From assembly GCA_049642065.1 (NCBI GenBank), contig JBAROK010000032.1:4100-68099 (forward strand): 64,000 nucleotides of DNA. The letters run 5' to 3'. Under the pieces are notes generated by a model. That model had not been told where the DNA came from. It saw only the letters and a list, made by a program, of their open reading frames with translations, and ran no database searches. The first letter of the stretch is position 1. Each line of letters begins with the position of its first letter. Positions 25,575-48,133 of this stretch are shown in pieces. The DNA is from Candidatus Omnitrophota bacterium. Its GTDB lineage: Bacteria; Omnitrophota; Gorgyraeia; Tantalellales; Tantalellaceae. The position numbers were made by a program, and so were the translations under genes.

Positions 25575-26528
25575 TTATTTTTGTTCTTCTGTCGGATAGA
25601 TCGTGATATTGTCTATGAAGAAGGGTCCTTTATAGGCAGGTTTGTTGGATTCTATTCTTATCGCGATTTTGCGGATATCTTCCTTAAAGGCTTTATCTAC
25701 TGTTGTTCTTCTCCAGACGGTATTGTTCCCTTCTGAGATATCGGCTGAAATAGTGGTCCATTTGCCCGGGCTGAGCCGAGTTGTACGTGTCATCTCTACG
25801 AACTTCCAATCTTCGCCGATGGTGAGCATTAGTTTTCCGCGAAGTCCTGCAGGGGCCTCTGGGGGGAGGTATATGTCAACAGAGATCTTATCGTATCCTG
25901 AGAGGTCTAGGTACTGCTGGATCTCAACAAGGGCCCCGGACCATTTATTGCCTGGGAATTCAGAGTAGACACCGAGAGCCCATGAACCATTGCTAGAGAT
26001 ATTGCTGACCGGTTCCATGGAAACAGCGACATGGTCCGTTTTATCAAAAGCCCAGGACGGTATTTCCCAGCCATTATTGTCTTTTTCAAAATCATACAGG
26101 GTCTTGCCACCTTCTTCAGATTTAATAGCTTGAGGAGCTGTATATTTATTCCATTCAGTGAATACAGGTTCGGCTCCTTTCCCGGATGTTTCGGTAGAAC
26201 TTTTTTCAGAAGGAACCATTTTTACAGCAGAAGGTATATATTTGTTGCTGAAAAAATAAACCGCGAAAATAACAACTACTCCGACAATCAGAAGTGGCAC
26301 TAATAAAGGTTTTCGGATTTGAGGACGGGCAGGACGACTATTTGGTTTATCCTTAGTCTGCTTGAGGCCCTCTTTAGGTTGCTCATCCTTCTTTTGCTGA
26401 GTTTCTTCAGGCTTTTTTTCTTCAGGTTTTGACTCTTGCGGTACGATTTCTGGCGTTTTTGAAGTATTGCCGAAATACGTTCTTGAAAGTTCCAAGTCTA
26501 TTTTGTCTTGAATTCTTCTGTTGTCCAT
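25575..26528 (-). CDS. Type II membrane protein with a K/P/E-rich basic cytoplasmic tail, one TM helix and an extracytoplasmic beta-sandwich (carbohydrate-binding-like) domain.
   Basis: The first ~75 aa are a low-complexity KPEEKKPEETQQKK region. TM segment LLVPLLIVGVVVIFAVYFF. The C-terminal ~200 aa are W/G/Y-rich beta strands. Confidence 0.5.
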   Translation of the reverse strand: MDNRRIQDKIDLELSRTYFGNTSKTPEIVPQESKPEEKKPEETQQKKDEQPKEGLKQTKDKPNSRPARPQIRKPLLVPLLIVGVVVIFAVYFFSNKYIPSAVKMVPSEKSSTETSGKGAEPVFTEWNKYTAPQAIKSEEGGKTLYDFEKDNNGWEIPSWAFDKTDHVAVSMEPVSNISSNGSWALGVYSEFPGNKWSGALVEIQQYLDLSGYDKISVDIYLPPEAPAGLRGKLMLTIGEDWKFVEMTRTTRLSPGKWTTISADISEGNNTVWRRTTVDKAFKEDIRKIAIRIESNKPAYKGPFFIDNITIYPTEEQK

Positions 26529-26727
26529 GTTTATTATTTTAACACAATAGGTGAGATATGGCTATACCCATTCGCTCTTGCAATGAACTTTTCATAAGGC
26601 AAAAAAGTGTGTTATATAAGTAAAATGCCATTTACATTATTATATTAATATGATATACTCATACACAAATAGCACAAAATATTCCGCTATATAACCTTTA
26701 CGACCACAAAATGTATGGGGGAGGGAA

Positions 26728-27771
26728 ATGAAGATAATCTCTATCGCTAATCAGAAAGGCGGTTGTGGTAAAACGACACTGGCGGTTAATATAGCCGCGG
26801 CGCTTGCCAGGCTAGGCAGCGAAACTCTTCTTATAGATCTGGATCCCCAGGCCCACGCCACGTTCGCTCTTGGTTACAGTAAAAAATCTTCCGAAAGAAA
26901 AACATCTTATGATATATTTCGTTCACATTTTGATAATACTGAAGTACCGTTCGAAGATATATTGATAACAGAAAGGAAGAAACTTTCTTTTATCCCGGCG
27001 AATATGATGCTTAGTGCCGCTGAGATAAACCTAGGCGGCGTTAACGGAGCAGCAGCCATATTACACAAGACGCTTCGTAATCCCTTTTTCTCGAAATACG
27101 AATACGTTATCATTGATTCTCCCCCCAGTTTTGGATTTCTGACACTAAACTCTATGTACGCTGCGGATATGATCCTCGTGCCGATGGATCTTAGTTATTT
27201 CTCGTTCAACGGCATAAACAGCGTTTACAGGGTAACGAGCCTGCTTAGTGCGGAAACGGGAAGAGAGCCTTCGGTCTTTTTCGTGATAAACATATTTGAC
27301 AAAAGATCGAATTTTGCGAAACAGTTCGAAAAAGACGCTAAAAAGAAGCTCGGGTCGTATTTGCTGCCAACGAAAGTACGTTCAAGTGTGCGTTTACGGG
27401 AGATCGCAAGACAAGGCAATACGATATTTGAGCACGATCCGAAATGCCCGGTAGCGCTTGACTTCTATAATCTTACCAGCGAGATACTCAACGCTGACAC
27501 CAAAGAGATAGCCGAGGAAATACGCGAGTTTACACTTCACGCTCCGGGAGCGGGTGCAGTGTATGTTCTCGGAGATTTTAACTGCTGGCAGAAGACCGAT
27601 GCGAGCCGTCTCAGTAAACTGGAAGACGGGCGCTGGTCGGCTCATTTCACGTTGCCTAAAGGGGAATATAGATACAAGTTCCTGGTAGACGATGAATGGC
27701 AACCCGATCCGAAGAACGTGAGTTCCGAAACCAATGTCTTCGGCACAGTTGACTCAATCCTGAAAATATAG
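26728..27771 (+). CDS. ParA/MinD-family P-loop ATPase fused to a C-terminal CBM48 (AMPK beta-type glycogen-binding) domain.
   Basis: Deviant Walker A NQKGGCGKTT with the signature Lys. ParA-like core of ~255 aa. The C-terminal ~85 aa read GDFNCWQ....W.....LPKGEYRYKFLVDDEWQPDP, the CBM48 signature. Confidence 0.8.
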   Translation: MKIISIANQKGGCGKTTLAVNIAAALARLGSETLLIDLDPQAHATFALGYSKKSSERKTSYDIFRSHFDNTEVPFEDILITERKKLSFIPANMMLSAAEINLGGVNGAAAILHKTLRNPFFSKYEYVIIDSPPSFGFLTLNSMYAADMILVPMDLSYFSFNGINSVYRVTSLLSAETGREPSVFFVINIFDKRSNFAKQFEKDAKKKLGSYLLPTKVRSSVRLREIARQGNTIFEHDPKCPVALDFYNLTSEILNADTKEIAEEIREFTLHAPGAGAVYVLGDFNCWQKTDASRLSKLEDGRWSAHFTLPKGEYRYKFLVDDEWQPDPKNVSSETNVFGTVDSILKI

Positions 27772-30127: not shown

Positions 30128-30300
30128 TGCTTTCCGTTGTGCTCGGAAAGGGAGCGAAACCCTCGATTTTTTGTCTCCTGCAACAAAATTCCATATATTT
30201 TTTGCATTTTATAGAATTATGATATAATATTATGATATATATACCTATATATAAATATAATATGGTGTATGTACATTTCGCGCAAAGAAAGGAGGCGCAA

Positions 30301-30534
30301 ATGGAAAGAGATGTAGCAGTATTCGAAAAGAACAAATATCAGGATGTAAAGATACGCATATCTGAATATCAGGGGAATGACGTAATCGACATCCGAATAT
30401 GGACTCAACCTCCTCAGGGAGACGAGAAGGTCCCGACTGGAAAAGGCATAAACATCAATGTTCGACTTTTTCCAAGACTCAAGGAAGCAATCGATAAACT
30501 TGAGAAGGATCTTAAAGAAGCAAACATGATGTAA
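30301..30534 (+). CDS. PC4/YdbC-like ssDNA-binding family protein (bacterial transcriptional coactivator p15-like).
   Basis: The ISEYQGNDVIDIRIW....G...PTGKGINI pattern is typical of YdbC/PC4. The ATG at 30301 has an AAAGGAGG SD. The upstream extension in the track ORF runs through a low-complexity AT repeat. Confidence 0.55.
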   Translation: MERDVAVFEKNKYQDVKIRISEYQGNDVIDIRIWTQPPQGDEKVPTGKGININVRLFPRLKEAIDKLEKDLKEANMM

Positions 30535-30627
30535 TTCCCATTACATGGATGATTGCACATATTCTTTATCCCTAAGGAAAGAAGATCCTAGCAGTACATA
30601 GTAGGAACACAAAACGCTGGAAACTTA

Positions 30628-31074
30628 ATGGATAACATGGAACACGGCGAGAAAAGACGATTTATAAGACACCTTCTCGTAAACCCTCTTGAATTCAAAA
30701 TATCCGACGCAGAACATTTCGAGAAGACGGAAACCGTTAATGTCAGCGAAGGAGGGCTTCTATTCCTCTCAAAAAAGAGGGTGGAGCCGGGTACTTTCAT
30801 ACAGTTGCAGATGCCGCTGTATGACAAGGTTTTCAAGATAAAAGCCAAAGTCGTTCATATCGAGAAAGACGAAACGACAGGGATGGAGAAGATAGGTGTA
30901 GCGTTCGTAAATTACGCGGATGCTTTCAAGGTAAAGCTTATCGAACAGATTTATCTCATTGAAGAATATCGCGTCCTGCGGTCTCTTCAACTGGGCAGAG
31001 AAATGACCCTTCAAGAAGCTTCCCGGGAATGGATCAAAAGATATTCTGAAAGGTTTGAGAAGCTATATTGGTAA
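30628..31074 (+). CDS. PilZ-domain (c-di-GMP-binding) protein.
   Basis: RRFIRH...... then N.SEGGLLF, i.e. the RxxxR and D/NxSxGG PilZ motifs. Confidence 0.7.
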   Translation: MDNMEHGEKRRFIRHLLVNPLEFKISDAEHFEKTETVNVSEGGLLFLSKKRVEPGTFIQLQMPLYDKVFKIKAKVVHIEKDETTGMEKIGVAFVNYADAFKVKLIEQIYLIEEYRVLRSLQLGREMTLQEASREWIKRYSERFEKLYW

Positions 31075-31264: not shown

Positions 31265-31298
31265 TTGATAAGAGTGGGATAAAGTGGAGGTAAGTGGA

Positions 31299-31736
31299 GT
31301 GTTTTACGGAGAATATTTACATAATCTTGATAAGAAGAATCGTCTGATTGTACCGGCAAAGTTCCGCGATGTTATCGGGGAAAAGGGTATAGAGAAATTC
31401 TATATTAACCGGGGCCTGGACGAGTGTCTTTTCATGTTTCCTGAAAGCGAATGGAAAGCTCAGGAAAGCAGGTTCAGGGAGATGTCTTTCACCAAAAGCG
31501 AAGTAAGAAAATTCAGCCGCTTGTTCTTTGCTGGAGCTGTTGAAGTTGTACCGGACAAGCAGTGGCGGATACTTATCCCGGATTATTTGAAAGAATATGC
31601 TAACCTCTCCAGGAACATAATGGTAATAGGCGTTTCCAGTCGCATTGAGATCTGGGATAAGCAGAAGTGGGAAGAGTTCTATAAATATTCGAAACAGAAT
31701 TATGAGGAAATAGCCGAGAGACTAATAGACGTTTAA
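31299..31736 (+). CDS. mraZ: Transcriptional regulator MraZ.
   Basis: FYGEYLHNLDKKNRLIVPAKFR and a second DUF199 repeat. The GTG at 31299 matches the conserved MF.G N-terminus. An alternative GTG lies at 31284. Confidence 0.85.
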   Translation: MFYGEYLHNLDKKNRLIVPAKFRDVIGEKGIEKFYINRGLDECLFMFPESEWKAQESRFREMSFTKSEVRKFSRLFFAGAVEVVPDKQWRILIPDYLKEYANLSRNIMVIGVSSRIEIWDKQKWEEFYKYSKQNYEEIAERLIDV

Positions 31737-31761
31737 AGCGCTTTAATATAGGGGGGTCAGG

Positions 31762-31953
31762 ATGTATAGAAGATATGCCGTGAAGTTAAATAAGAAGCAA
31801 GTGGAGTTCATTAATTGCGTCAATATGGTTGAACGCATTAAAAAAGCGAGAGCTCTTCCTTCCGGTATCGCACATCTTGGCGTGAAGAGGTATGTGGTTT
31901 CTTCTGCCGGACTGGGGAAACAGACATATATAACTGTCAAAGATTGTGAATAA
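31762..31953 (+). CDS. Small basic hypothetical protein (63 aa) inserted between mraZ and rsmH.
   Basis: GGGGGG SD 5 nt upstream of the ATG. No family recognised. Confidence 0.3.
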   Translation: MYRRYAVKLNKKQVEFINCVNMVERIKKARALPSGIAHLGVKRYVVSSAGLGKQTYITVKDCE

Positions 31954-32003
31954 GAGTACGCTATTTTTTGTTCGCCCAAAACAGTGAAAACGGAGGGCCT
32001 GTT

Positions 32004-32189
32004 ATGAAGAAAAAATATTTACAGGCATGTGAAGTAAACGGTTCGATTTATGGCAAGAAGCGTACGACTGACAGAAAAGGCTCCGTTGAAAAGAAACGTG
32101 GAGACAGCGGGGATATGATATCTTCCTATACTAAGTTTTATAGAAGTCAGGTTTCTGCCATGTACAAGGTTCTTCACAGAGACAGGTAA
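32004..32189 (+). CDS. Small very basic hypothetical protein (61 aa) inserted between mraZ and rsmH.
   Basis: GGAGGG SD 5 nt upstream of the ATG. K/R-rich with a disordered look. Confidence 0.3.
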   Translation: MKKKYLQACEVNGSIYGKKRTTDRKGSVEKKRGDSGDMISSYTKFYRSQVSAMYKVLHRDR

Positions 32190-32204
32190 TGGAAAGGATC
32201 CCCC

Positions 32205-33080
32205 TTGCATCTTCCGGTTCTATTATGCGAAGTTTTAGAATATCTTTGCCCTGAGCCCGGGGATGTGATCCTTGACGGTACTCTAGGAGGAGGGGGGCAT
32301 GCCGTCCAGATAATTGAGAAGATAGCTCCTGGCGGCAAGCTTATAGGGATAGACAGGGATCCGGAAGCCATCGAGAGGATAATCCAGAAGTTCGGGAACC
32401 AGGGAATATTCGTTAATGATGATTTCCGCGGCGTTGATCGTATTTTGAAGGAGGTAGGGGCCGACTTGATCGACGGCGCGGTATTTGACCTGGGAGTATC
32501 CTCGTACCAGATCGATGACGGACGGAGGGGATTCAGTTTTTTAAAAGATGGACCGTTGGACATGCGGTTCGACGCGAGTAAAGGGATATCCGCGGAAAAA
32601 GTGGTCAACGAGTTCGGCAAGGAAGAGCTTGCGGACATAATAAAAACATACGGAGAAGAAAGACATGCCAAACTTGTGGCCGGAGCTATTTGCTCAGAAA
32701 GAAGAAAAAAGAGAATCGGTACCACAGGTGATCTTGTTGATGTTATTCGCCGGGCGGTAGGGCGTAAATATACTAGGCAGCGCATACATCCAGCGGCAAG
32801 GACTTTTCAGGCGCTGAGGATCTTTGTCAATGACGAGCTTGGGTCCGTGGAGGAAGCCGTGAAGAGGACTCTTCTTCATCTTCGTCCAGAAGCGAGGATA
32901 TGCGTAATATCGTTTCATTCGCTTGAGGACAGGATCGTCAAGAATATCTTCAGGGATGCCGCTAAGGCTGGAGAGGTGAGATTAGTGACCAAAAAACCGG
33001 TCTCTCCTTCTAAGGAGGAGGTTCGGTCAAATCCAAGGTCAAGAAGCGCAAAACTGCGCGTTGCGGAAAGATTGTCATGA
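32205..33080 (+). CDS. rsmH: 16S rRNA (cytosine1402-N4)-methyltransferase RsmH.
   Basis: HLPVLL.EVL, DGTLGGGGH and GVDRILKEVGADLID motifs. TTG start. Confidence 0.9.
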   Translation: MHLPVLLCEVLEYLCPEPGDVILDGTLGGGGHAVQIIEKIAPGGKLIGIDRDPEAIERIIQKFGNQGIFVNDDFRGVDRILKEVGADLIDGAVFDLGVSSYQIDDGRRGFSFLKDGPLDMRFDASKGISAEKVVNEFGKEELADIIKTYGEERHAKLVAGAICSERRKKRIGTTGDLVDVIRRAVGRKYTRQRIHPAARTFQALRIFVNDELGSVEEAVKRTLLHLRPEARICVISFHSLEDRIVKNIFRDAAKAGEVRLVTKKPVSPSKEEVRSNPRSRSAKLRVAERLS

Positions 33081-33439
33081 GGATGCATAAAACAATAACG
33101 ATGGGTCTAGTTGTTACGGTAATGGCCATAGGCTATGTGCACCAGCAGGTGGAGATAGTCAAGGCCGGATACTCTCTGCAGAAGAGCAGGAAGCACCTCT
33201 CATGCCTCGTTGACCAGAATTCTAAGTTAATGTATAATTTATCAAAGTTGGAATCCCCCAGGAATCTTCTGACTTCGCTGAACGGGGAAGAAATAGAATT
33301 CGCGAGCAACAAGATAAGGCGGACAAACAGTTACCAGATCGCTCAAGCCGATTCGAGTGATGGTGATGCCAGTCAAAGTATTATCGGCAAGTTCCTGGAT
33401 CTATTTACCGTGAATGCCGAAGCGAAGCCCCGTGAATAA
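33077..33439 (+). CDS. ftsL: Cell division protein FtsL-like (bitopic).
   Basis: Single TM helix followed by a coiled-coil, at the canonical position between rsmH and ftsI. Confidence 0.65.
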   Translation: MRMHKTITMGLVVTVMAIGYVHQQVEIVKAGYSLQKSRKHLSCLVDQNSKLMYNLSKLESPRNLLTSLNGEEIEFASNKIRRTNSYQIAQADSSDGDASQSIIGKFLDLFTVNAEAKPRE

Positions 33440-33468
33440 TACAGCGTATACAACCGTTATGAGGGACG

Positions 33469-35172
33469 ATGTTCAGGGCACGCCAATATTTGGTATTTAT
33501 CTTTTTAATAACACTTCTATTATCCCTGTTTTTCAGGCTTTTCTATCTGCAGGTCCTCAATTTCGAAAGGTTCACTGAACTTGCTTCCGGACAGCATAAC
33601 AAGGTTCTTAAAATAGAGCCCCGTAGAGGGGCTATTTTCGACAGGTACTTAGAGCCTTTGGCGATAAATCTTGATGTACCGAGTGTTTACTGTGATCCGC
33701 GTAACGTTAAAGATCCGGAACGGACAGCAGACGTATTAGTGGAAGTACTGGGTGTGGATCGCGATACGGTCCTGGAAAGGATCAAAAGAGACAAGGTCTT
33801 TGTCTGGATAAAACGTAAAATAGACCCTTCCGAAGCAGAAGTCCTGAAAAAAGCGGACCTTAACGGGATATATTTCCTCACTGAAAGCAAAAGGAGCTAC
33901 GGTAACGATAACATGGCCTCGCATGTCGTGGGGTTCGTGGGTATAGACAATAATGGGCTTGAGGGGCTTGAACTTCTCTTTGACGAGCAGCTTAGAGGTA
34001 AACCCGGTTGGAGGCACCTGGTAAGGGATGCTAAAAGAAGAACGGTTCTTTTTAACGAAAAGGAATCTATCCCGGCCCAGAACGGGCACAATCTTGTACT
34101 TACGATCGATAGTGTCATACAATACATAACCGAAGAAGAGCTAAAGAAAGCGGTAGAAAAATACAACGCTTCAAGCGCTTCAGCGATTGTGATGGATCCA
34201 TTTACGGGCAAGATCCTGGCCATGGCGAATTATCCTGATTACGATCTTAACGAGTATTCAGAAACGCCCAGTGATATCATGAAGAACCTTGCTGTCATGA
34301 GCGTCTATGAGCCTGGTAGCGTTTTCAAGATAGTTACTGCAAGCGCGGCACTGGAAGAAGGTGTGGTCGATCTTGAGGAGGAGATTTACTGCGAGAACGG
34401 GGAATATAAGGTAGGGGGCAGGATCCTGCACGATTTTCACCAGTACAAGGATCTTCCTTTCAGGGAAGTGGTGTCAAAGTCGAGTAATATAGGTACGGTG
34501 AAGATAGCAGAACGTCTTGGCAAGGATAAGGTATATGATTATATAGAAAAGTTCGGGTTCGGAGAGAAGACCGGAATAGACTTGCCCGGAGAAAGCGGTG
34601 GCATCAGCCGACCACCGAGAGTGTGGTCGCGTAGCGATATCACAACCATACCTATAGGTCAGGGTATAGCTGTCACTCCTTTGCAGATGACCTGCGCAAT
34701 GAGCGTGATAGCTAACGGCGGATATTTTGTTAGGCCATACGTAGTAGAACGGATAACTACGTGGGAGGGTGAGACCCATAAGGAATTCTTTACGCAGGGA
34801 AAACGAAGGCTTCTGAGCGAAGAAACTTGTGAAGAAATGAAAGATGCCTTAAGTCATGTTGTCTCCAGCGGTACTGGCAGGCGTGCAAGCTCCAAGTTGT
34901 TCGAAGTATGTGGTAAAACGGGTACCGCTCAGATGGTCCGGCCAGAAGGTGGGTATTACGAGAATAAGTATAACGCTACATTTGTTGGGTTCGCACCCAA
35001 GGAAAACCCCGTTGTGACTATTTTAGTAACAGCGCGAGACCCGCACCCGGTGCATTTTGGCGGCAGTGTAGCAGGTCCTGCGTTCAAAAAAATAGCCGAA
35101 GGTTCGATTCAGTATCTCGGATCCGGTAAAACCAATAAAGTTAAAGTGCTTAGCAAGGACGAAAAACAATAA
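33469..35172 (+). CDS. ftsI: Peptidoglycan D,D-transpeptidase FtsI (PBP3, class B).
   Basis: N-terminal TM and PBP dimerisation domain. SVFK (SxxK), SSN and KTGTAQ motifs. Confidence 0.9.
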   Translation: MFRARQYLVFIFLITLLLSLFFRLFYLQVLNFERFTELASGQHNKVLKIEPRRGAIFDRYLEPLAINLDVPSVYCDPRNVKDPERTADVLVEVLGVDRDTVLERIKRDKVFVWIKRKIDPSEAEVLKKADLNGIYFLTESKRSYGNDNMASHVVGFVGIDNNGLEGLELLFDEQLRGKPGWRHLVRDAKRRTVLFNEKESIPAQNGHNLVLTIDSVIQYITEEELKKAVEKYNASSASAIVMDPFTGKILAMANYPDYDLNEYSETPSDIMKNLAVMSVYEPGSVFKIVTASAALEEGVVDLEEEIYCENGEYKVGGRILHDFHQYKDLPFREVVSKSSNIGTVKIAERLGKDKVYDYIEKFGFGEKTGIDLPGESGGISRPPRVWSRSDITTIPIGQGIAVTPLQMTCAMSVIANGGYFVRPYVVERITTWEGETHKEFFTQGKRRLLSEETCEEMKDALSHVVSSGTGRRASSKLFEVCGKTGTAQMVRPEGGYYENKYNATFVGFAPKENPVVTILVTARDPHPVHFGGSVAGPAFKKIAEGSIQYLGSGKTNKVKVLSKDEKQ

Positions 35173-35173
35173 T

Positions 35174-36628
35174 ATGAATGAAACTTTGGATCATTTGATC
35201 AGTGTGGGATTTCTTAAGAAGGGAAACATCAAAACGGATTCCCGGAGGGTTAATAGCGGAGATGTGTTCGTTGCTATAAAAGGAACAGCGAATGATGGAC
35301 ATGATTATGTTGCCGAGGCTTTAGCAAAAGGTGCCGCGTTTGTGTTATGTAACCGTGATGTGCAGGGGCTATCGGAGACGGATCGTGGCAGAATATTGTT
35401 CGTAAAAGATACGCGCGAAGCGTTAGGGGATACGGCTAGCCGTGTTTATGGTGATCCTTCCGGGGAACTTAAGGTTTACGGAGTAACCGGAACTAACGGT
35501 AAGACGAGTACAATATTTCTTATAGACGGGATACTTAACAAGATGGGTAAGCCTAGTGGGCTTATAAGCACTGTGTTCACAAAGACTGCAGATGATTCGA
35601 TAGTGCGTTCGTCCATGACTACCCCGGATGTTCTGTCTCTAAACCGTTTGCTTTCAGAGATGGTCGCGGGGTGGAAACAGGCCGCAGCAGTTGAAGTTTC
35701 AAGCCATGCTCTTGACCAGAAGAGGATATGGGGGGTAAAACTGGATAGCGCTGTATTCACAAATATAACCCCGGAACACTTGGATTACCATAGAGATATG
35801 GTCACGTATCTCAGCGACAAATCCCGGATATTTGAGTACCTTAAGCCAGGAGGTATTGGCGTGTTAAACCGGGATGATCCTATGGTTATTGGGCTTAAGG
35901 ATAAAATAGACTTGCCGCATCTTGTAACGTTCGGTCTGGGAGAGGAAGCGGACGTTAGAGCCGACAACATAATTTTATCTGCTGAAGGTGCCGAATTTGA
36001 CTTAGTAACAAAAGATATTGGCACAGCACATGTAAAAACGCCGCTTATCGGCAGGCATAACGTGTATAACATATTGGCGGCCATAACGGCTTTAGTGAAC
36101 AGCGGACTTAACGCGGATGATATGGCACGGGGGATAGAATACGCAAGTCCGGTTCCTGGTCGTCTGGAAGCTATAGATTCGGCAGCGCCCTTCAGGACTT
36201 TTGTGGATTATGCGCATACGCCCAACGCTTTGGAGAATGTGTTAGGGTGCCTGCGTTGTTTGGCAAGAGATCGTCTTATCTGTGTTTTTGGGTGTGGAGG
36301 AGACAGAGACAAGACTAAGCGGCCTGTAATGGGACAGATAGCGGCGGATATTTGTGATATGGTAATAATTACTAGTGATAACCCAAGAACAGAAGATCCG
36401 ATGGATATAATAAGCGATATAGAAAAGGGAGTGCTTAATAAAAGTAACTATAGTATAATGGGACAAAGGCAGGACGCTATAAGAGAGGCTCTAGGAACGG
36501 CTAAAGACGGCGATATCGTGGTTATAGCCGGGAAAGGGCACGAGGATTACCAAATCATAGGCGATAGGGTCACGCATTTCGACGACAGGGAAGTAGCGCG
36601 CGAAGTTCTTAAAGAATTGGGATATTAA
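35174..36628 (+). CDS. murE: UDP-MurNAc-L-Ala-D-Glu:meso-DAP ligase MurE.
   Basis: GVTGTNGKTS P-loop. The DNPR motif indicates meso-DAP specificity. Confidence 0.9.
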   Translation: MNETLDHLISVGFLKKGNIKTDSRRVNSGDVFVAIKGTANDGHDYVAEALAKGAAFVLCNRDVQGLSETDRGRILFVKDTREALGDTASRVYGDPSGELKVYGVTGTNGKTSTIFLIDGILNKMGKPSGLISTVFTKTADDSIVRSSMTTPDVLSLNRLLSEMVAGWKQAAAVEVSSHALDQKRIWGVKLDSAVFTNITPEHLDYHRDMVTYLSDKSRIFEYLKPGGIGVLNRDDPMVIGLKDKIDLPHLVTFGLGEEADVRADNIILSAEGAEFDLVTKDIGTAHVKTPLIGRHNVYNILAAITALVNSGLNADDMARGIEYASPVPGRLEAIDSAAPFRTFVDYAHTPNALENVLGCLRCLARDRLICVFGCGGDRDKTKRPVMGQIAADICDMVIITSDNPRTEDPMDIISDIEKGVLNKSNYSIMGQRQDAIREALGTAKDGDIVVIAGKGHEDYQIIGDRVTHFDDREVAREVLKELGY

Positions 36629-36642
36629 GGTGTTCACCCAAC

Positions 36643-38019
36643 ATGATAAACATCACAGTAAAAGAAATAGCTCAGGCGACGGGCGGACGGGTATATTCAA
36701 GAAAAGAAAATGAAACCGTAAATGGTTTTTCCATAGATTCCCGCACGACAGTACCCGGCGATATTTTCATAGCTATTAAAGGGTCGAATTTCGACGGACA
36801 TGATTTTATCGGCGAAGCGTTGGATAAGGGCGCCAGCGGGATTATCGTTCAAGAAAAAGCAGGGATCAGTCTTCCTTCGAACGCTTCTCATCTTATAGCC
36901 GTTGAAGATACGCTTGAAGCGTTGGGTAGGGTTGCTGCTGAGATAAGAAGCCGTGTAGATATCCCCGTGGTTTGTATAACGGGAACGAATGGTAAGACTA
37001 CGGTGAAAGATATACTTTCACGGTTGCTTTCCGCAGAATACAAAGTGCTCAAGAGCGATAAGTCGTATAATAATATTATTGGTCTCAGCCTGACGCTGTT
37101 TGACCTTGATTCTTCTTATGATGTAGTCGTGCTGGAGCTAGGGACGAATCATCCGGGTGAGATACCGGTACTTGCACGTATAGCTGCTCCGCATATCGCG
37201 ATCATAACGAATATAGGTGACGGTCACCTGCAGTATTTCGTTGATAGGGAAGGCGTGTTTGTAGAAAAGATAAGTCTTTTGGACTATCTGCCCGATACGG
37301 GCATGGCGTTTCTTAATAGGGACGATCCGCTTTTGGCCAGGGCCGCGACACGCGGTGTGACAAGGAAGTTTTACGGCAGCTCAGAAGGGTCGGATTTTCT
37401 GATATCAGATTTTTCACGTAAGAATGACGGGTACGAATTTTCTCTTAATGGTGACGTTTTTTTTGTCCCTCTAAAAGGCGAGCATAACATTTATAACGCG
37501 GCTTCAGCGGTAGCGGTAGCCGGGTATTTCGGCATATCAGTAGATAACATACGACAGCTACTTAAGGAAATATCCCTTCCGGGTATGCGTCTTGAGAAAG
37601 TGACAGCGGAGAATATCACATTTATCAATGATTCGTATAACGCTAACCCAGATTCTTTTGAGTGTGCTCTTATGGTTCTGAAAGAGAATGATGAAGGCCG
37701 GAAAAAGGGAGTGGTAGCGGGAGATATGATGGAGCTTGGGGAAAAATCCGACGAGTTTCACGAGATGATCGGCAAAAGCATACAGGATAAAGGGTTTGAT
37801 TTTCTGATAACGTTGGGTAAGAGTGCAGGCCATATCGCAGATGGAGCTTTGGAAGAAGGCATGTCAAAGGATCGGGTTCTGCGCGTAGAGACTCACGAAG
37901 AAGCCGCTGTAATGATAAAACAAATGGCAGATAAAGATGCGGTGGTTCTGTTAAAAGGATCACGCGCGTCACGAATGGAGGAAGTGCTTAAGTGTTTTAC
38001 TATTTCTTGTACCCACTGA
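36643..38019 (+). CDS. murF: UDP-MurNAc-tripeptide:D-Ala-D-Ala ligase MurF.
   Basis: ITGTNGKTT P-loop and Mur ligase middle and C-terminal domains. Confidence 0.9.
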   Translation: MINITVKEIAQATGGRVYSRKENETVNGFSIDSRTTVPGDIFIAIKGSNFDGHDFIGEALDKGASGIIVQEKAGISLPSNASHLIAVEDTLEALGRVAAEIRSRVDIPVVCITGTNGKTTVKDILSRLLSAEYKVLKSDKSYNNIIGLSLTLFDLDSSYDVVVLELGTNHPGEIPVLARIAAPHIAIITNIGDGHLQYFVDREGVFVEKISLLDYLPDTGMAFLNRDDPLLARAATRGVTRKFYGSSEGSDFLISDFSRKNDGYEFSLNGDVFFVPLKGEHNIYNAASAVAVAGYFGISVDNIRQLLKEISLPGMRLEKVTAENITFINDSYNANPDSFECALMVLKENDEGRKKGVVAGDMMELGEKSDEFHEMIGKSIQDKGFDFLITLGKSAGHIADGALEEGMSKDRVLRVETHEEAAVMIKQMADKDAVVLLKGSRASRMEEVLKCFTISCTH

Positions 38020-39080
38020 GAGAGTTCTGGTTTGGGTTCAATGTTTTTAGGTACATAACCTTCCGGGCTAGCATGGCTGCGGTTACGGCTTTTGCTATGT
38101 GCATCATATTCGGACCTCCCATAATCAAATGGCTTAAAAGCTTAAAAGCGGGGCAGTATGTAAGAAAAGAGCATGTTGAAGGGCTCTATGACCTGCATAA
38201 ACACAAGGAGGGTACTCCTACCATGGGAGGGCTTCTGATCCTGGTGGCGGTACTGGTTTCAACGCTCCTGTGGGGCAGGCTGGATAACGATTATGTTTTT
38301 CTAGCACTTGCCGGGATGACATGGCTGGGGATAGTAGGGTTCATTGATGACATGATCAAGATCCGTAATAAAAGTGCCAGAGGCATACAGGGCGCTACGA
38401 AACTTATAGGGCAGGTCTCGCTGGCTCTTATAGTGGGGATATTTGTTATAACCAACAAGGCGATAGGGGCGGATCTGTATTTACCTTTTATGAAGAACGC
38501 TGTAGCTAATCTGGGGTTATTCTACATACTTTTCGTGCTCTTGGTCATTGTCGGAGCGAGTAACGCGGTCAATCTTACCGATGGTATAGATGGGCTTGCG
38601 GTTGGATGTGTGGTATTTATTGCGCTGACTTATTCTGTGATGAGTTATATAACCGGTAACGCAATGATCAGCAAGTATCTACAGGTATTTTATTTGCCGG
38701 GATCCGGTGAGCTCACGGTTTTTTGTTCGGCCTTAATGGGGGCATCTCTAGGGTTTCTCTGGTTCAATAGCCATCCGGCTAATATTTTCATGGGAGACAC
38801 CGGAGCACTTTCTTTAGGTGGCGCGATTGCAATAGTAAGCGTGCTTATTAAAAAAGAGGTACTCTTGATACTTACAGGGGGTGTGCTGGTAATAGAAGCG
38901 CTTTCGGTGATCTTGCAAGTGCTATATTTCAAGGTAAGAAAAAAACGACTTTTCCTTATGTCCCCCATACACCACCATTTTCAGATCAAAGGATGGCACG
39001 AATCTAAGATTACGGTGCGTTTCTGGATAATAGCCGCTATACTTGCACTTCTAAGTATGGCGACACTGAAAGTTCGATAA
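37992..39080 (+). CDS. mraY: Phospho-MurNAc-pentapeptide translocase MraY.
   Basis: FNVFRYITFRA N-terminus and ~10 TM segments. GTG start. DDxxD-region motif. Confidence 0.9.
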   Translation: MFYYFLYPLREFWFGFNVFRYITFRASMAAVTAFAMCIIFGPPIIKWLKSLKAGQYVRKEHVEGLYDLHKHKEGTPTMGGLLILVAVLVSTLLWGRLDNDYVFLALAGMTWLGIVGFIDDMIKIRNKSARGIQGATKLIGQVSLALIVGIFVITNKAIGADLYLPFMKNAVANLGLFYILFVLLVIVGASNAVNLTDGIDGLAVGCVVFIALTYSVMSYITGNAMISKYLQVFYLPGSGELTVFCSALMGASLGFLWFNSHPANIFMGDTGALSLGGAIAIVSVLIKKEVLLILTGGVLVIEALSVILQVLYFKVRKKRLFLMSPIHHHFQIKGWHESKITVRFWIIAAILALLSMATLKVR

Positions 39081-39088
39081 TCAAAATT

Positions 39089-40426
39089 ATGTTCGATGTA
39101 AAAAATAAAAAAATCATCGTAGTAGGGCTAGGATTGAGTGGCCGTGCGGCGGCGCAGTTGCTTTCCGAGAGGGGAGCGGAAGTAAAAGTCACCGAGAGTG
39201 CTGAGCATGAAAAAGTACAGAAGCATCTTGATGCGCTGACTGGATGTTCGATTGAGTTTGAGCTCGGACGGCATACGGAAGAGTTTTGCAAAGATGCCTA
39301 TATGGTCGTAACGAGTCCTGGGGTGGATCCTGAGGCTCTGCCCTTGACGGTCGCAAGAAGCCGGAATATACCTATAATCGGAGAATTAGAACTGGGATAT
39401 TTATTTTGTTGCGCTCCGGTAATAGCGATTACGGGGACGAACGGCAAGAGTACCACGACCGAACTTATAGGGGATATACTTGCCTGTTCGGGGAAACACA
39501 CTATTGTTTGCGGTAATATTGGCAACCCGTTAAGCGGTGAAGTAGATAAGCTTACCGAGGATAGTGTGGCTGTCGTGGAAGTAAGCTCCTTCCAGCTGGA
39601 GACTATAAAGGATTTCAGGCCTTACATAGGCGTTCTTCTTAACGTTTCAGAGGACCATTATGAGAGGCACGGTAACCTTGATGCGTATAAAATGGAAAAG
39701 TTCAAGATCTTCAGAAACCAGGCTTCGGATGACTGGGCGGTTTTGCATTCCGATTTTCAGAAAGACAGTATGGCCTCTCAAGTGAAAAGCAGAACCGTGT
39801 TTTTTGGGCAGAAAGATTCTATGGTTTTGGCCGAAGATGGTAGGGTTGTGGCAGATGCCGGAAAATTCATACTGGAAGAGTGCGATATACCTCTTAAGGG
39901 TATCCATAATATGGAGAATGTTGCGTGTGCAGTGCTTGTATCGAAGATCATGGGAGTTACCGAAGAGAATATTCGTGAAGGGATTAGCGCTTTCAGAGCT
40001 CTTCATCACAGGTTTGAAAAAGTTGCCGAGTTTGAGGGGGTAGAATTTATTGACGATTCCAAGGCTACTAACATTGACGCGACACGCCGGGCGCTTGAAT
40101 CGATGAATAAGAAAGTGGTGTTAATAGCTGGGGGAAGGGATAAGGGCGGAGATTACCGTTCGATTCTTCCCTTGATAAAAGAGAAAGTGAAAACAGTGGT
40201 GGTTATTGGAGAGGCTAGTAGTAATATCACCAGTGCTTTCGGAGAAACTATTCCGGTGGTGTCTGCAGATAGCATGTCGGATGCAGTTGAAGTATCTATG
40301 CAGACCGCGAATAGTGGGGAAGCTGTAATGCTTTCGCCGATGTGTTCCAGCTTTGATATGTACACGGATTATAAGCATCGAGGAAAGGTTTTTCAGCAGG
40401 AAGTCCGTAAGTTAACCGGACAATAA
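39089..40426 (+). CDS. murD: UDP-MurNAc-L-Ala:D-Glu ligase MurD.
   Basis: ITGTNGKSTT P-loop and an N-terminal Rossmann domain. Confidence 0.9.
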   Translation: MFDVKNKKIIVVGLGLSGRAAAQLLSERGAEVKVTESAEHEKVQKHLDALTGCSIEFELGRHTEEFCKDAYMVVTSPGVDPEALPLTVARSRNIPIIGELELGYLFCCAPVIAITGTNGKSTTTELIGDILACSGKHTIVCGNIGNPLSGEVDKLTEDSVAVVEVSSFQLETIKDFRPYIGVLLNVSEDHYERHGNLDAYKMEKFKIFRNQASDDWAVLHSDFQKDSMASQVKSRTVFFGQKDSMVLAEDGRVVADAGKFILEECDIPLKGIHNMENVACAVLVSKIMGVTEENIREGISAFRALHHRFEKVAEFEGVEFIDDSKATNIDATRRALESMNKKVVLIAGGRDKGGDYRSILPLIKEKVKTVVVIGEASSNITSAFGETIPVVSADSMSDAVEVSMQTANSGEAVMLSPMCSSFDMYTDYKHRGKVFQQEVRKLTGQ

Positions 40427-40427
40427 T

Positions 40428-41516
40428 ATGAACAAAGACGCAAAAATAGTTTTTCTGACGATGTGCGTTCTGCTCATGCTGGGCGTGGTAATGATATATT
40501 CATCAAGTGCTGTGTATGCTTATGGTGAATACGATGACAGCATGTTCTTCGTTAAAAAACACCTTATCTATCTTGCAACGGGACTTGCTGCCGCGGTTCT
40601 ATGTATGATTCTGCCGGCGGGGCGCATACAGGATTCAGCGAGATGGGTGCTATTCGTAGCGATGATTCTACTGGTCGCGGTGCTGGTTCCCGGGATAGGC
40701 CGGCAGATCGGTGGTGCGCGAAGATGGATGCGGTTTTTCGGGTTTGGATTTCAACCGTCGGAGGTCGCTAAATTCGCACTTATAATTTATCTGGCTGATT
40801 TTACTGCCCGCAGACGGTATTTGATGCAGGACCTGAAGTACGGTTTTCTGCCTCCATTGTTCGTTACTGGGTTAGTCGGAGGCCTTGTGCTTTTAGAACC
40901 AGATATGGGTACGTCCGTGGCTATACTTTTTATCGGATTTATTATGATGTTTGTATCAGGAGCTCGACTAAGGCATCTTGTGTTCATTACGAGCTGTGCG
41001 CTGCCTGTGCTGGCGCTTGCCGTTATTTGCGAGCCTTACCGCGTTAGGCGCGTGCTAGCTTTCTGTAACCCCTGGAAGGACGCTAAGGGTTCCGGTTTTC
41101 AGCTTATACAGTCTTTCATTGCATTAGGTTCTGGCGGTATCTTAGGTGTTGGGCTCGGCGGATCAAAGCAGAAACTTTTTTATCTCCCCGAATCCCATAC
41201 CGATTTTATATTTTCAATAATCGGGGAAGAACTGGGATTTTTAGGAGCAGCCTCAGTGCTTATGCTTTTTGCGGCAATTATATGGTTCTTGTTAAGGTTA
41301 GCGCTTAAGATAAAGGACCAATTTGCTTCACGGGTTGTTCTAGGGATAACTGTGATGATAGCTTTTGAGGTTATTGTCAATATAGGTGTTTCTACGGGTA
41401 TGTTTCCGACTAAGGGGCTGCCGCTTCCTTTTATAAGTTACGGAGGCAGTTCTCTTGTATGTCATCTGGCAGCTATGGGTATTGTTTTCAATATGGCAAG
41501 GAGGGTAGAGGAGTGA
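40428..41516 (+). CDS. ftsW: SEDS-family peptidoglycan polymerase FtsW.
   Basis: 10-TM SEDS pattern with PESHTDFIFS, in the canonical dcw position. Confidence 0.85.
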   Translation: MNKDAKIVFLTMCVLLMLGVVMIYSSSAVYAYGEYDDSMFFVKKHLIYLATGLAAAVLCMILPAGRIQDSARWVLFVAMILLVAVLVPGIGRQIGGARRWMRFFGFGFQPSEVAKFALIIYLADFTARRRYLMQDLKYGFLPPLFVTGLVGGLVLLEPDMGTSVAILFIGFIMMFVSGARLRHLVFITSCALPVLALAVICEPYRVRRVLAFCNPWKDAKGSGFQLIQSFIALGSGGILGVGLGGSKQKLFYLPESHTDFIFSIIGEELGFLGAASVLMLFAAIIWFLLRLALKIKDQFASRVVLGITVMIAFEVIVNIGVSTGMFPTKGLPLPFISYGGSSLVCHLAAMGIVFNMARRVEE

Positions 41517-44896: not shown

Positions 44897-44904
44897 TAAC
44901 CATC

Positions 44905-45849: not shown

Positions 45850-45877
45850 TATATAGGACTAAAAAAGGAGAGTAGTA

Positions 45878-46675: not shown

Positions 46676-46683
46676 GGAGATAG

Positions 46684-47736: not shown

Positions 47737-47820
47737 AAGCCAGACATATTCCTCACCATAAAACCTTTAAATTAAATAACTTATAATATGTTAGAGATAC
47801 AACACTTAGCTAGCTTTAAC

Positions 47821-47849
47821 TTGTCTTAACTAAACTAAAATGTTATAAT
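47821..47849 (+). promoter_or_regulatory. Sigma70-like promoter TTGTCT-17-TATAAT with an extended TG, driving an ORF-less transcript.
   Basis: Hexamers at 47821-47826 and 47844-47849, with TG at 47842-47843. Confidence 0.5.
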
Positions 47850-47855
47850 GATACA

Positions 47856-47989
47856 GTCCTGAATGAAGGCAATTCTGCAGTTGTGTAGGGTGCAAAGTTC
47901 AGGCACTAATAAAGTAAAATTGAACAACAAAGCTTGGCACGGTTTAGATGGCCGGACTGTCCATAAGAGATGGGCAGTCCGGTTTTTTT
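47856..47989 (+). ncRNA. Candidate small non-coding RNA (~130 nt) bounded by a promoter and an intrinsic terminator. Identity unknown.
   Basis: There is no ORF with an RBS. Internal helix CCTGAA (47858-63) / TTCAGG (47898-903). It ends in a strong terminator. Confidence 0.3.
47951..47989 (+). terminator. Rho-independent terminator.
   Basis: Stem CCGGACTG / CAGTCCGG with a 15-nt loop, followed by a T7 run. Confidence 0.8.
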
Positions 47990-48133
47990 AAAGCTGTAGG
48001 CGCCATTTTCCTACCGATAGGTGTAAAAAAGGACTCTTCTTATCACCTAAACTATATTCATATACATTTATTGACATCATGCTTAAAGTGTGATAATTTT
48101 AACCATTAATATAATTGCCTGAAGAGGTATATC

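What the first reader, a model, noticed from the sequence alone, without database searches (positions are those of the whole stretch)
26728..27771. ParA-type positioning ATPase fused to a CBM48 glycogen-binding domain
The N-terminal ~255 aa is a classical ParA/MinD deviant-Walker-A ATPase (KGGCGKT with the signature Lys). The C-terminal ~85 aa carry the CBM48 (AMPK beta-subunit / glycogen-branching-enzyme N-terminal) signature W...LPKGEYRYKFLVDDEWQPDP. ParA-family ATPases are known to position chromosomes, plasmids, carboxysomes (McdA), chemoreceptor arrays and PHB granules. A direct fusion to a glycogen/starch-binding module suggests a system that positions glycogen or another alpha-glucan granule. 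I do not recognise this arrangement as described. The gene is followed by arfB and smr. It is divergent from a membrane protein with a long basic disordered tail, the property McdB-type adaptor proteins have.
Basis: partly seen in the sequence, partly recalled or inferred. Interest (0 to 1): 0.7.

Follow-up and report, generated by a model that had tools for sequence, protein, structure and literature searches.

The report
ParA ATPase with tethered glycogen-binding module
This gene encodes a ParA-type "positioning" ATPase permanently fused to a glycogen-binding module; the fusion is real, found across many bacterial phyla and apparently unstudied, and may be the first dedicated machinery for organising sugar-storage granules inside bacterial cells.

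Summary
ORF 26728-27771 (+) encodes 347 aa: a Soj-type ParA ATPase with all catalytic residues intact, then an AMPK-beta-type CBM48 (45 bits, cutoff 26.8). The fusion is not an artefact. It has over 100 full-length Omnitrophota homologs, and an exhaustive search found 787 representatives below E 1e-30, many of the best being full-length fusions. It also occurs in Krumholzibacteriota, Desulfobacterota, Rokubacteria, Gammaproteobacteria and others. The two sugar-stacking tryptophans are kept in 81 of 81 proteins. The tether between the domains varies from a few to about 280 residues.

New here: the ATPase nearly always has a conserved neighbour with a short conserved N-terminal peptide. In the window this is the divergent membrane protein (25575-26528), whose outer domain has a carbohydrate-binding-module fold. 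In other phyla the neighbour is usually soluble and carries a ParB-like LGRGLEDISHLFLS peptide.

Links to alpha-glucan enzymes are partial: GH57 lies two genes upstream in about 22 loci, and GlgB is adjacent in one. One 91%-complete MAG with the fusion has no annotated glycogen synthesis.

I found no publication on this architecture. The most likely function is ATP-gated, bivalent attachment of glycogen to the nucleoid and/or envelope. That is inferred, not shown.

The parts
26728..27771 (+). Gene for the 347-aa ParA-CBM48 fusion protein (end coordinate includes the stop codon)
   Evidence: Over 100 full-length homologs at 40-95% identity. AF2 model has pLDDT 91 and pTM 0.89.
26728..27501 (+). 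Soj-type ParA ATPase domain (residues 1-258)
   Evidence: Pfam AAA_31 and CbiA. PDB sequence hits 8ray, 1wcv and 6iub. Foldseek TM-score 0.86-0.93 relative to the Soj/ParA targets.
26752..26775 (+). Deviant Walker A, QKGGCGKT (residues 9-16), with signature Lys10 and P-loop Lys15
   Evidence: Invariant in alignment A1. QKGGCGKT also dominates in the unbiased HMMER representatives, so the Cys is a family signature.
26836..26850 (+). Switch I / Walker A' motif DLDPQ (residues 37-41; D37 and D39)
   Evidence: Invariant. The loci were selected using this peptide, so that part of the evidence is circular.
27109..27126 (+). Walker B region IIDSPP (residues 128-133; D130)
   Evidence: D130 is kept in 81/81 proteins and P133 in 81/81.
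27304..27306 (+). Arg193, which aligns with the Arg of the D-x-R motif in T. thermophilus Soj. From my own knowledge, this is the non-specific DNA-binding Arg189 of B. subtilis Soj.
   Evidence: Aligned to the 1wcv 'ydgRt' segment. Arg in 79/81 proteins.
27514..27768 (+). CBM48 / AMPK-beta-type alpha-glucan-binding module (residues 263-347), an all-beta domain
   Evidence: Pfam AMPK1_CBM, 45-49 bits. AMPK beta1 CBM, E 1e-9. The model shows strands only, with pLDDT above 90.
27586..27588 (+). Trp287, equivalent to the AMPK beta1 W100 sugar-stacking residue
   Evidence: Trp in 81/81 proteins. The residue roles in AMPK come from my knowledge of Polekhina et al. 2005.
27676..27678 (+). Lys317, equivalent to AMPK beta1 K126
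   Evidence: K in 32, R in 40 and Q in 9 of 81 proteins.
27697..27699 (+). Trp324, equivalent to the AMPK beta1 W133 sugar-stacking residue
   Evidence: Trp in 81/81 proteins.
26529..26727 (.). AT-rich divergent intergenic region shared by the ATPase and partner genes
   Evidence: Promoter-like sites on both strands: + 26631-26659 (10 of 12 matches, extended -10) and - 26564-26536. These are consensus matches only. No centromere-like repeat array was found.
25575..26528 (-). Candidate partner gene: a 317-aa single-pass membrane protein
   Evidence: The same architecture is adjacent to the ATPase in 41-47 loci, either same-strand upstream or divergent. Full-length Omnitrophota homologs exist.
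26472..26507 (-). Partner N-terminal conserved peptide DKIDLELSRTYF (residues 8-19), predicted to form a helix; candidate ATPase-contact peptide
   Evidence: It is the only conserved cytoplasmic element in alignment A2: F19 invariant and D8, I10, D11, E13, L14 and Y18 at 90% or more. The model shows a helix at residues 9-19. Interaction with the ATPase is inferred.
26304..26471 (-). Partner disordered charged linker (residues 20-75)
   Evidence: pLDDT is mostly below 50 across this stretch. Length and sequence vary across A2.
26241..26303 (-). Partner transmembrane helix (residues 76-96)
   Evidence: Hydropathy 2.96. Model helix at 76-96. Six basic residues lie just N-terminal to it, which implies an N-in topology (read from the sequence).
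25593..26111 (-). Partner extracytoplasmic beta-jelly-roll domain (residues 140-312), with a carbohydrate-binding-module fold
   Evidence: Pfam CBM27, 30 bits against a cutoff of 20. Foldseek matches a mannanase CBM (1wky, E 2.5e-9), then CBM28, CBM27, CBM11 and CBM22. Six invariant Trp residues.

Best explanation
The gene encodes an orphan ParA-family ATPase, separate from the chromosomal ParAB system, whose C-terminus carries a tethered CBM48 module that binds intracellular alpha-1,4-glucan (glycogen).

Proposed mechanism:
1. ATP drives the usual ParA sandwich dimer.
2. The dimer presents two CBM48 modules, so weak monovalent sugar binding becomes avid binding to a glycogen particle. This parallels how MinD dimerisation doubles its C-terminal membrane-targeting helix.
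3. The ATPase body meanwhile binds its other surface. That surface is the nucleoid (through the Soj-type Arg193 face) and/or the partner protein.
4. The partner's conserved N-terminal peptide triggers ATP hydrolysis, and the attachment falls apart.

The net effect would be ATP-gated tethering and distribution of glycogen granules relative to the nucleoid and, in Omnitrophota, to an inner-membrane partner.

Shown: the domain identities, the conservation of catalytic and sugar-binding residues, the fusion's breadth across phyla, and the conserved adjacent partner genes. Inferred: glycogen binding, dimer avidity, DNA binding, the peptide-ATPase contact, and granule positioning.
For: **Domains.** Both domains score above Pfam thresholds. 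The ATPase is closest to Soj/ParA by sequence and by fold. The CBM is closest to the AMPK beta glycogen-binding module.

**Active-site conservation.** Catalytic residues K10, K15, T16, D37, D39 and D130 are invariant. The Soj R189 equivalent is Arg in 79/81 proteins.

**Sugar-site conservation.** W100, W133, Y125 and G147 equivalents are kept in 81/81 proteins. The K126 equivalent is K, R or Q, and the N150 equivalent is N or D. This holds across Omnitrophota, Krumholzibacteriota, Desulfobacterota, Rokubacteria, Gammaproteobacteria and others.

**Breadth.** The fusion is conserved from 31% to 95% identity. An exhaustive search found 787 representatives (50% clustering) below E 1e-30, many of the best being full-length fusions.

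**Tether.** The distance from the ATPase to the CBM ranges from 267 to 551 residues. Long-linker examples P0156 and P0223 confirm the layout. This behaviour fits a tethered binding module rather than a rigid structural domain.

**Specificity.** The same CBM subtype occurs in tandem arrays fused to an alpha-amylase catalytic domain (P0180).

**Gene neighbours.** GH57 lies two genes upstream in 20-22 loci. GlgB is adjacent in L063.

**Partners.** An adjacent gene with a conserved N-terminal peptide is present in 58 of 81 loci. In non-Omnitrophota loci that peptide contains LGRGLE, the hallmark of ParB N-terminal ParA-activating peptides (my own knowledge).

**Organism.** Omnitrophota MAGs are reported to encode glycogen synthesis (PMC8542988).
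Against: - There is no experimental evidence of any kind.
- Ca. Aadella gelida (91%-complete MAG) carries the fusion (P0050) but is annotated with trehalose synthesis only, not glycogen synthesis.
- No glycogen gene lies in the 64-kb window. Apart from GH57 and one GlgB, none lies within 10 kb in the 81 loci.
- In classical ParA systems the cargo carries the activating partner. Here the ATPase itself would hold the cargo, and the Omnitrophota partner sits in the membrane with an extracytoplasmic beta-glycan-type CBM. The simple granule-partition picture does not explain that arrangement.
- The Omnitrophota partner peptide could not be shown to be homologous to the ParB-like peptide of other phyla.
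- DNA binding rests on a single conserved Arg.
Confidence: 0.5

Rival explanations
1. Glycogen is a signal or a scaffold rather than the cargo. As in AMPK, the CBM48 reports carbohydrate-storage status, or it anchors the ATPase on glycogen as a matrix. The real job of the ATPase would then be to regulate or localise its partner, which is an envelope protein in Omnitrophota and a soluble protein elsewhere.
For: In classical ParA systems the partner, not the ATPase, marks the cargo (my own knowledge). The partners' C-terminal parts are diverse: TM plus an extracytoplasmic CBM fold, HTH plus TM plus RodZ_C, AAA_22, or no known domain. This looks like one ATPase module serving different clients. 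In the window's clade the gene sits just upstream of the dcw cluster. The closest solved homolog of the CBM is the AMPK beta module, which my own knowledge says has been proposed to act as a glycogen sensor.
Against: The variable-length tether suits a reach-and-bind module better than an allosteric sensor. No cargo can be named for the soluble partners. The dcw synteny is confined to one clade and is absent from more distant relatives.
Confidence: 0.2
2. The C-terminal domain has the CBM48 fold but binds something other than alpha-glucan. Candidates are another cytoplasmic glycan or glycoconjugate, or a protein. In that case the system has nothing to do with glycogen.
For: Ca. Aadella gelida has the fusion without annotated glycogen synthesis. 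The window's surroundings point to mannan: the partner's CBM27/mannanase-type fold, two GH113 genes, and GH130 next to the gene in relatives. From my own knowledge, CBM48/E-set domains can also mediate protein contacts.
Against: The residues that contact sugar in AMPK beta (both Trp, Lys/Arg, Asn/Asp) are the most conserved positions in the domain across all phyla. The domain scores best against the glycogen-binding AMPK1_CBM model. Its nearest non-ParA relatives are attached to an alpha-amylase catalytic domain. The mannan-related domains lie outside the cytoplasm or are confined to one clade.
Confidence: 0.15
3. It is simply this organism's chromosome-segregation ParA (Soj) with an accessory domain.
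For: The ATPase is closest to chromosomal Soj/ParA structures. The Soj DNA-binding Arg is conserved. JGI and one NCBI record name homologs as 'chromosome partitioning protein'.
Against: No ParB gene is adjacent here or in the related loci whose genes I examined. GC skew stays positive across the whole window, so no origin is nearby. The family also occurs in Gammaproteobacteria and Desulfobacterota, lineages that from my own knowledge normally have a standard parAB. The partner genes are not ParB, since they lack HTH/ParB domains. I did not check whether a separate parAB exists in this genome.
Confidence: 0.07
4. The fusion is an assembly or annotation artefact: two genes joined by a frameshift.
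For: None found.
Against: The reading frame is uninterrupted. Nearly all of the hundred-plus full-length homologs from independent assemblies and sources are 347-348 aa, the same length as the window protein. The fusion is present in many phyla. The model is confident through the junction.
Confidence: 0.01

Closest known systems
Chromosomal Soj/ParA (T. thermophilus Soj 1wcv/2bek, H. pylori Soj 6iub, ParA 8ray)
   Same: Best match by sequence and by fold (E 4e-35; TM-score about 0.9 relative to the target). It shares the deviant Walker A with signature Lys, the switch Asp residues, and the D-x-R Arg used for non-specific DNA binding.
   Different: No adjacent ParB and no parS-like repeats. It has a Cys in the P-loop (KGGCGKT) and carries an extra C-terminal CBM48 that no solved ParA has.
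McdA-McdB carboxysome positioning system
   Same: Both are orphan ParA ATPases devoted to a non-DNA cytoplasmic body, and both have a neighbouring partner gene with a disordered, charged region. McdA structures are significant fold matches (6non, E 1e-17).
   Different: McdA reaches its cargo only through McdB, whereas here the cargo-binding module is fused to the ATPase. The window's partner is an inner-membrane protein with an extracytoplasmic CBM fold, not a soluble adaptor on the cargo. There are no carboxysome genes nearby.
MinD
   Same: Both are ParA/MinD-fold ATPases with a surface-binding element at the extreme C-terminus. In MinD, that element binds effectively only when ATP-driven dimerisation doubles it (my own knowledge). 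The same avidity logic is proposed here.
   Different: The appended element is an 85-aa carbohydrate-binding domain on a variable tether, not an amphipathic membrane helix. There are no MinC or MinE neighbours. The sequence is nearer to Soj than to MinD.
AMPK beta-subunit carbohydrate-binding module (CBM48; 1z0m, 4yef)
   Same: It is the closest solved homolog of the C-terminal domain (E 1e-9). The W100, K126, W133 and N150 equivalents are conserved.
   Different: It is attached to a bacterial P-loop ATPase rather than a eukaryotic kinase scaffold subunit. The N150 equivalent is Asp in the window protein, and the L146 equivalent is aromatic.
BcsQ (ParA/MinD-family ATPase of cellulose secretion)
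   Same: Both are ParA/MinD-fold ATPases linked to a polysaccharide system and to membrane partners. There are weak Pfam and NCBIfam hits and fold matches (6ybb).
   Different: Scores fall far below the family cutoff (74.7 against 157.85 bits). No bcs genes are present. BcsQ has no CBM.

Membership tests
ParA/MinD (deviant Walker A) ATPase superfamily | Deviant Walker A, KGGxxGK[ST], with the N-terminal signature lysine | tested here: met
   The motif is QKGGCGKT at residues 9-16. K10 and K15 are invariant.
ParA/MinD (deviant Walker A) ATPase superfamily | Switch I / Walker A' aspartates and the Walker B aspartate | tested here: met
   D37, D39 and D130 are kept in 81/81 proteins. D37 and D39 lie partly within the search pattern used, but they are also invariant in A1.
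ParA/MinD (deviant Walker A) ATPase superfamily | ParA/Soj three-dimensional fold | tested here: met
   AF2 model with pLDDT 91. Foldseek matches 8ray, 2bek and 1wcv at TM-score 0.88-0.93 relative to the target.
ParA/MinD (deviant Walker A) ATPase superfamily | ATP-dependent dimerisation and partner-stimulated ATPase activity | not testable with these tools
   This needs biochemistry or multimer modelling. Only single-chain prediction was available.
ParA/MinD (deviant Walker A) ATPase superfamily | A cognate partner protein with an N-terminal ATPase-stimulating peptide, encoded nearby | tested here: inconclusive
   An adjacent conserved gene with a conserved N-terminal peptide is present in 58 of 81 loci. 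The non-Omnitrophota type contains the ParB-like LGRGLE. The window's type (DKIDLELSRTYF) could not be linked to it by HMM. No interaction was tested.
Chromosomal ParABS (Soj-Spo0J) system | parA immediately followed by parB, with parS sites, usually near the origin | tested here: not met
   No ParB is present in the window or in the related loci whose genes I examined. No repeat array was found. GC skew does not switch sign.
Chromosomal ParABS (Soj-Spo0J) system | Non-specific DNA binding through surface Arg/Lys residues (B. subtilis Soj R189) | tested here: inconclusive
   The equivalent R193 is Arg in 79/81 proteins. DNA binding itself was not tested.
CBM48 / AMPK-beta glycogen-binding module | Profile match above the curated threshold | tested here: met
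   AMPK1_CBM scores 45.1 bits (48.7 for the domain alone) against a cutoff of 26.8. CBM_48 scores 25.7-29.1 bits against a cutoff of 22.4.
CBM48 / AMPK-beta glycogen-binding module | Carbohydrate-contact residues (AMPK beta1 W100, K126, W133, N150) | tested here: met
   Both Trp positions are W in 81/81 proteins. The K126 equivalent is K, R or Q. The N150 equivalent is N in 42 and D in 38. In the window protein these are W287, K317, W324 and D342.
CBM48 / AMPK-beta glycogen-binding module | Beta-sandwich fold | tested here: inconclusive
   The model shows seven strands over residues 263-346 with pLDDT above 90. I did not run a domain-only fold search. The full-length search returned only ATPase matches.
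CBM48 / AMPK-beta glycogen-binding module | Binding to glycogen, amylose or cyclodextrin | not testable with these tools
   Requires a binding assay.
McdAB carboxysome positioning | A soluble, disordered McdB adaptor that binds the carboxysome shell, with the locus linked to carboxysome genes | tested here: not met
   The partner has a TM helix and an extracytoplasmic CBM fold. There are no carboxysome genes in the window.
MinCDE | A C-terminal amphipathic membrane-targeting helix, with minC and minE neighbours | tested here: not met
   The C-terminus is a CBM48 domain. The neighbours are ArfB, Smr and the CBM-fold membrane protein. The minD NCBIfam models score 42-44 bits against cutoffs above 200.

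The most novel reading that the evidence does not exclude
This is the founding member seen here of a widespread, unstudied class of ParA systems whose ATPase binds a storage polysaccharide directly. It would either be the first active partition or tethering machinery for glycogen granules, or a ParA that uses glycogen instead of the nucleoid or membrane as its working surface. In Omnitrophota it would be wired through an inner-membrane partner to an extracytoplasmic glycan-binding domain, physically linking outside glycan to inside carbon stores.
Probability: 0.4. Interest if true: 0.8.

Novelty: new variant of a known kind. Interest (0 to 1): 0.66.

Why it matters
ParA/MinD ATPases are known to position chromosomes, plasmids, carboxysomes, chemoreceptor arrays, flagella and the divisome. 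As far as I know, and as far as the literature searches show, no dedicated system has been described for glycogen, the most widespread bacterial carbon store.

A ParA family with a built-in glycogen-binding module, spread over many phyla, gives a concrete candidate that can be tested by mutation. It would show whether polysaccharide granules are actively organised and inherited. It would also add a third way for ParA/MinD proteins to attach to a surface: a carbohydrate module, alongside DNA-binding patches and membrane helices.

The paired partner proteins offer a set of natural variations on one ATPase module. The CBM-on-a-tether design could also be reused to target proteins to glycogen.

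Tried and rejected
1. **Unifying the two partner peptides.** I first merged the Omnitrophota peptide (HLAKVYL / ELSRTYF) and the other-phyla peptide (ISHLFLS) under one regular expression. It matched 44 of 310 adjacent ORFs and 0 of 1026 others. An HMM trained only on the ISHLFLS type did not recover the Omnitrophota type. Homology is therefore withdrawn, and only the shared layout and adjacency remain.
2. **Invariance of QKGGCGKT/DLDPQ in the 81 loci.** This was partly circular, because one search used those peptides as its search patterns. I re-checked it on the unbiased HMMER set.
3. **Residue mapping.** My first AMPK residue mapping used a wrong offset. I redid it anchored on FNNW.
4. **Glycogen-gene scan.** Motif and BLAST scans for GlgA, GlgC, GlgP, GH13 and GH57 within 10 kb found only GH57 and one GlgB. 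The motifs are crude and could miss divergent enzymes.
5. **Cluster names.** The listing of cluster members on ten distant representatives gave no useful names or cultured hosts.
6. **Literature.** Eight searches found no description of the fusion. The Gemmatimonadota and CipG papers are unrelated to it.
7. **AFDB50 fold search.** The library was unavailable.
8. **Strict CBM regex.** It missed many true CBMs. The architecture counts from that call are lower bounds only.
Full report
**Observation.** The ORF at 26728-27771 (+) is present exactly as described. It encodes 347 aa and has a strong Shine-Dalgarno sequence. Pfam places AAA_31/CbiA on residues 1-231. It places AMPK1_CBM on residues 274-345 at 45 bits against a cutoff of 26.8, with CBM_48 also above its threshold. 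The stated neighbours are also correct: an ArfB-like RF-1 protein, Smr, and a divergent single-pass membrane protein.

**Source organism.** Homolog names place the window in Candidatus Omnitrophota. It is a core chromosomal region containing a complete dcw cluster and an mreBCD-pbp2-rodA cluster. GC skew is uniformly positive, so no replication origin lies in the window.

**The fusion is real and old.** More than 100 full-length homologs at 40-95% identity come from independent assemblies, and nearly all are 347-348 aa. An exhaustive HMMER search of 1.84 billion cluster representatives found 787 below E 1e-30. Many of the best 150 are full-length fusions. A scan of species-representative genomes found full-length matches in many lineages:
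- Omnitrophota
- Krumholzibacteriota
- Desulfobacterota
- Rokubacteria
- Gemmatimonadales
- Margulisiibacteriota
- Auribacterota
- Gammaproteobacteria (Thiohalobacter, Thiogranum)

The distance from Walker A to the CBM ranges from 267 to 551 residues. Members such as P0156 (624 aa) and P0223 (682 aa) have the ATPase, then a 320-370-aa linker, then a C-terminal AMPK1_CBM. The CBM therefore behaves as a tethered module.

**ATPase half.** By sequence and by fold it is nearest to chromosomal Soj/ParA (8ray, 1wcv/2bek, 6iub). McdA, MinD and BcsQ are more distant. All catalytic residues are invariant. The P-loop cysteine (KGGCGKT) is a family signature that persists in the unbiased search set. Arg193 aligns with the Arg of the Soj D-x-R motif and is Arg in 79/81 proteins. 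From my own knowledge, that residue is the non-specific DNA-binding Arg189 of B. subtilis Soj. No solved structure extends beyond the ATPase domain.

**CBM half.** Its best solved homolog is the AMPK beta1 glycogen-binding module, at E 1e-9. I mapped the AMPK beta1 cyclodextrin-contact residues onto 81 fusion proteins from all the phyla above. The residue roles come from my own knowledge of Polekhina et al. 2005.

| AMPK beta1 residue | State in the 81 fusion proteins |
|---|---|
| W100 | W in 81/81 |
| W133 | W in 81/81 |
| Y125 | Y in 81/81 |
| G147 | G in 81/81 |
| K126 | K, R or Q |
| N150 | N or D |

These are the most conserved positions in the domain, which argues that the canonical sugar site is under selection. 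The same CBM subtype occurs in tandem arrays. One array has 17 copies (P0121), and another is fused to an alpha-amylase catalytic domain (P0180).

**A conserved partner.** I called ORFs in 81 loci and clustered them. The gene next to the ATPase falls into three BLAST-distinct families that share one architecture. Each has a conserved N-terminal peptide, a charged and variable linker, one TM helix and a Trp-rich beta-domain. This type sits upstream on the same strand in most Omnitrophota. In the window's clade it is divergent. Adjacency has therefore survived a rearrangement.

The window's partner (25575-26528) models as follows:
- a helix at residues 9-19, which is the conserved motif;
- a disordered stretch (20-75);
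- a TM helix (76-96);
- a confident beta-jelly roll (140-312).

That beta-domain matches carbohydrate-binding modules: a mannanase CBM (1wky), then CBM28, CBM27, CBM11 and CBM22. Six basic residues immediately before the TM helix imply that the N-terminus is cytoplasmic and the CBM fold is extracytoplasmic.

In other phyla, and in a few Omnitrophota, the conserved neighbour is instead downstream and usually soluble. It starts with a peptide such as KPLGRGLEDVSHLFLS. Its LGRGLE core matches the ParA-activating N-terminus of ParB proteins (my own knowledge). The C-terminal parts of these partners are unrelated to one another: AAA_22/PEP-CTERM-ATPase-like, HTH plus TM plus RodZ_C, or no known domain.

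The two partner types never co-occur: 41 loci have one, 17 have the other, none has both, and 23 have neither by my crude ORF calling. An HMM trained on the second type does not detect the first. Their equivalence is therefore a hypothesis, not a result.

**Link to alpha-glucan metabolism.**

Supporting:
- A GH57 enzyme (231 bits) lies two genes upstream in 20-22 loci of one Omnitrophota clade, next to an AlgE-like porin.
- A bona fide GlgB is adjacent in a Desulfobacterota locus.
- Omnitrophota MAGs are reported to encode glycogen synthesis (PMC8542988).

Against:
- The window has no glycogen genes.
- I saw no other alpha-glucan genes within 10 kb in the 81 loci.
- Ca. Aadella gelida has the fusion but is listed with trehalose synthesis only.

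**Mechanism.** The most economical reading is an ATP-gated, bivalent glycogen tether. ATP-driven dimerisation pairs two weak CBMs, following the logic of MinD's C-terminal helix. The ATPase body engages the nucleoid and/or the partner, and the partner peptide triggers hydrolysis and release. I put this at about 0.5.

The main rival treats glycogen as a signal or a matrix and the partner as the client (0.2). It is favoured by the diversity of the partners and by the odd pairing with an extracytoplasmic CBM. A non-glucan ligand (0.15) and a plain chromosomal ParA (0.07) are less likely, and an artefact is excluded.

**Novelty.** Databases annotate these proteins only as "AAA family ATPase" or "chromosome partitioning protein". 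Eight full-text searches found no description of a ParA-CBM48 protein or of ParA-driven glycogen organisation. The nearest paper concerns CipG, which recruits GlgC to carboxysomes. I classify the finding as a new variant of a known kind. It is a ParA/MinD ATPase with a new, fused surface- or cargo-binding module and its own partner families.

Noticed in passing
window 31284-47736, and 47737-48931: The dcw cluster runs from mraZ through ftsQ and ftsA. It is followed by a pyrroline-5-carboxylate reductase gene rather than ftsZ, and none of the window ORFs I scanned with Pfam is FtsZ. The FtsA-like protein is short (350 aa), and only its SHS2 domain scores.
   Followed up: partly
window 11549-12598 and 12730-13824 (both on the - strand): Two tandem GH113 (beta-mannanase family) genes are among the few minus-strand genes in the window. 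With the partner's CBM27/mannanase-type fold and the GH130 in relatives, they suggest a mannan theme outside the cytoplasm.
   Followed up: no
L001 11209-12201; L002 11255-12202; L003 3517-4464: In close relatives a GH130 (beta-mannoside phosphorylase family) gene follows the ParA-CBM48 gene directly. It is missing from the window, where arfB follows after 17 nt.
   Followed up: no
window 30232-31074: A bacterial PC4-domain protein and a PilZ-domain protein sit just upstream of mraZ. The trio is conserved in relatives L001 and L002.
   Followed up: no
P0121 (1812 aa), P0180 (1409 aa), P0218, P0254: These proteins are built from 5-17 tandem copies of the same AMPK1_CBM-type module. One has an alpha-amylase catalytic domain.
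   Followed up: partly
L018, L026-L083 (Omnitrophota loci): positions -3, +1 and +2 relative to the ATPase gene: There is a conserved gene string around the ATPase. An AlgE-like 'Alginate_exp' outer-membrane porin lies at -3 or -2. A DUF4870 membrane protein lies at +1. A very basic, roughly 130-aa protein with a C-terminal beta-barrel lies at +2. Each occurs in 24-32 loci.
   Followed up: partly
L002 1-2481 and 3561-9809: Two giant ORFs (over 2000 aa each) with no Pfam hits lie immediately upstream of the ParA-CBM48 gene in a 746-kb Omnitrophota contig.
   Followed up: no
whole window: GC skew is strongly and uniformly positive. About 59 of 65 predicted genes are on the + strand.
   Followed up: no
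P0186 (713 aa): A relative has two tandem ParA (AAA_31) domains in one polypeptide, effectively a covalent dimer. It has KGGVGKT rather than KGGCGKT, and no AMPK1_CBM or CBM_48 hit.
   Followed up: no
L078, L080, L084 (Gammaproteobacteria): position -1: A MerR-type HTH protein is conserved immediately upstream of the ATPase gene in the three gammaproteobacterial loci (family 91). The MerR assignment is by eye from the sequence and was not checked against Pfam.
   Followed up: no
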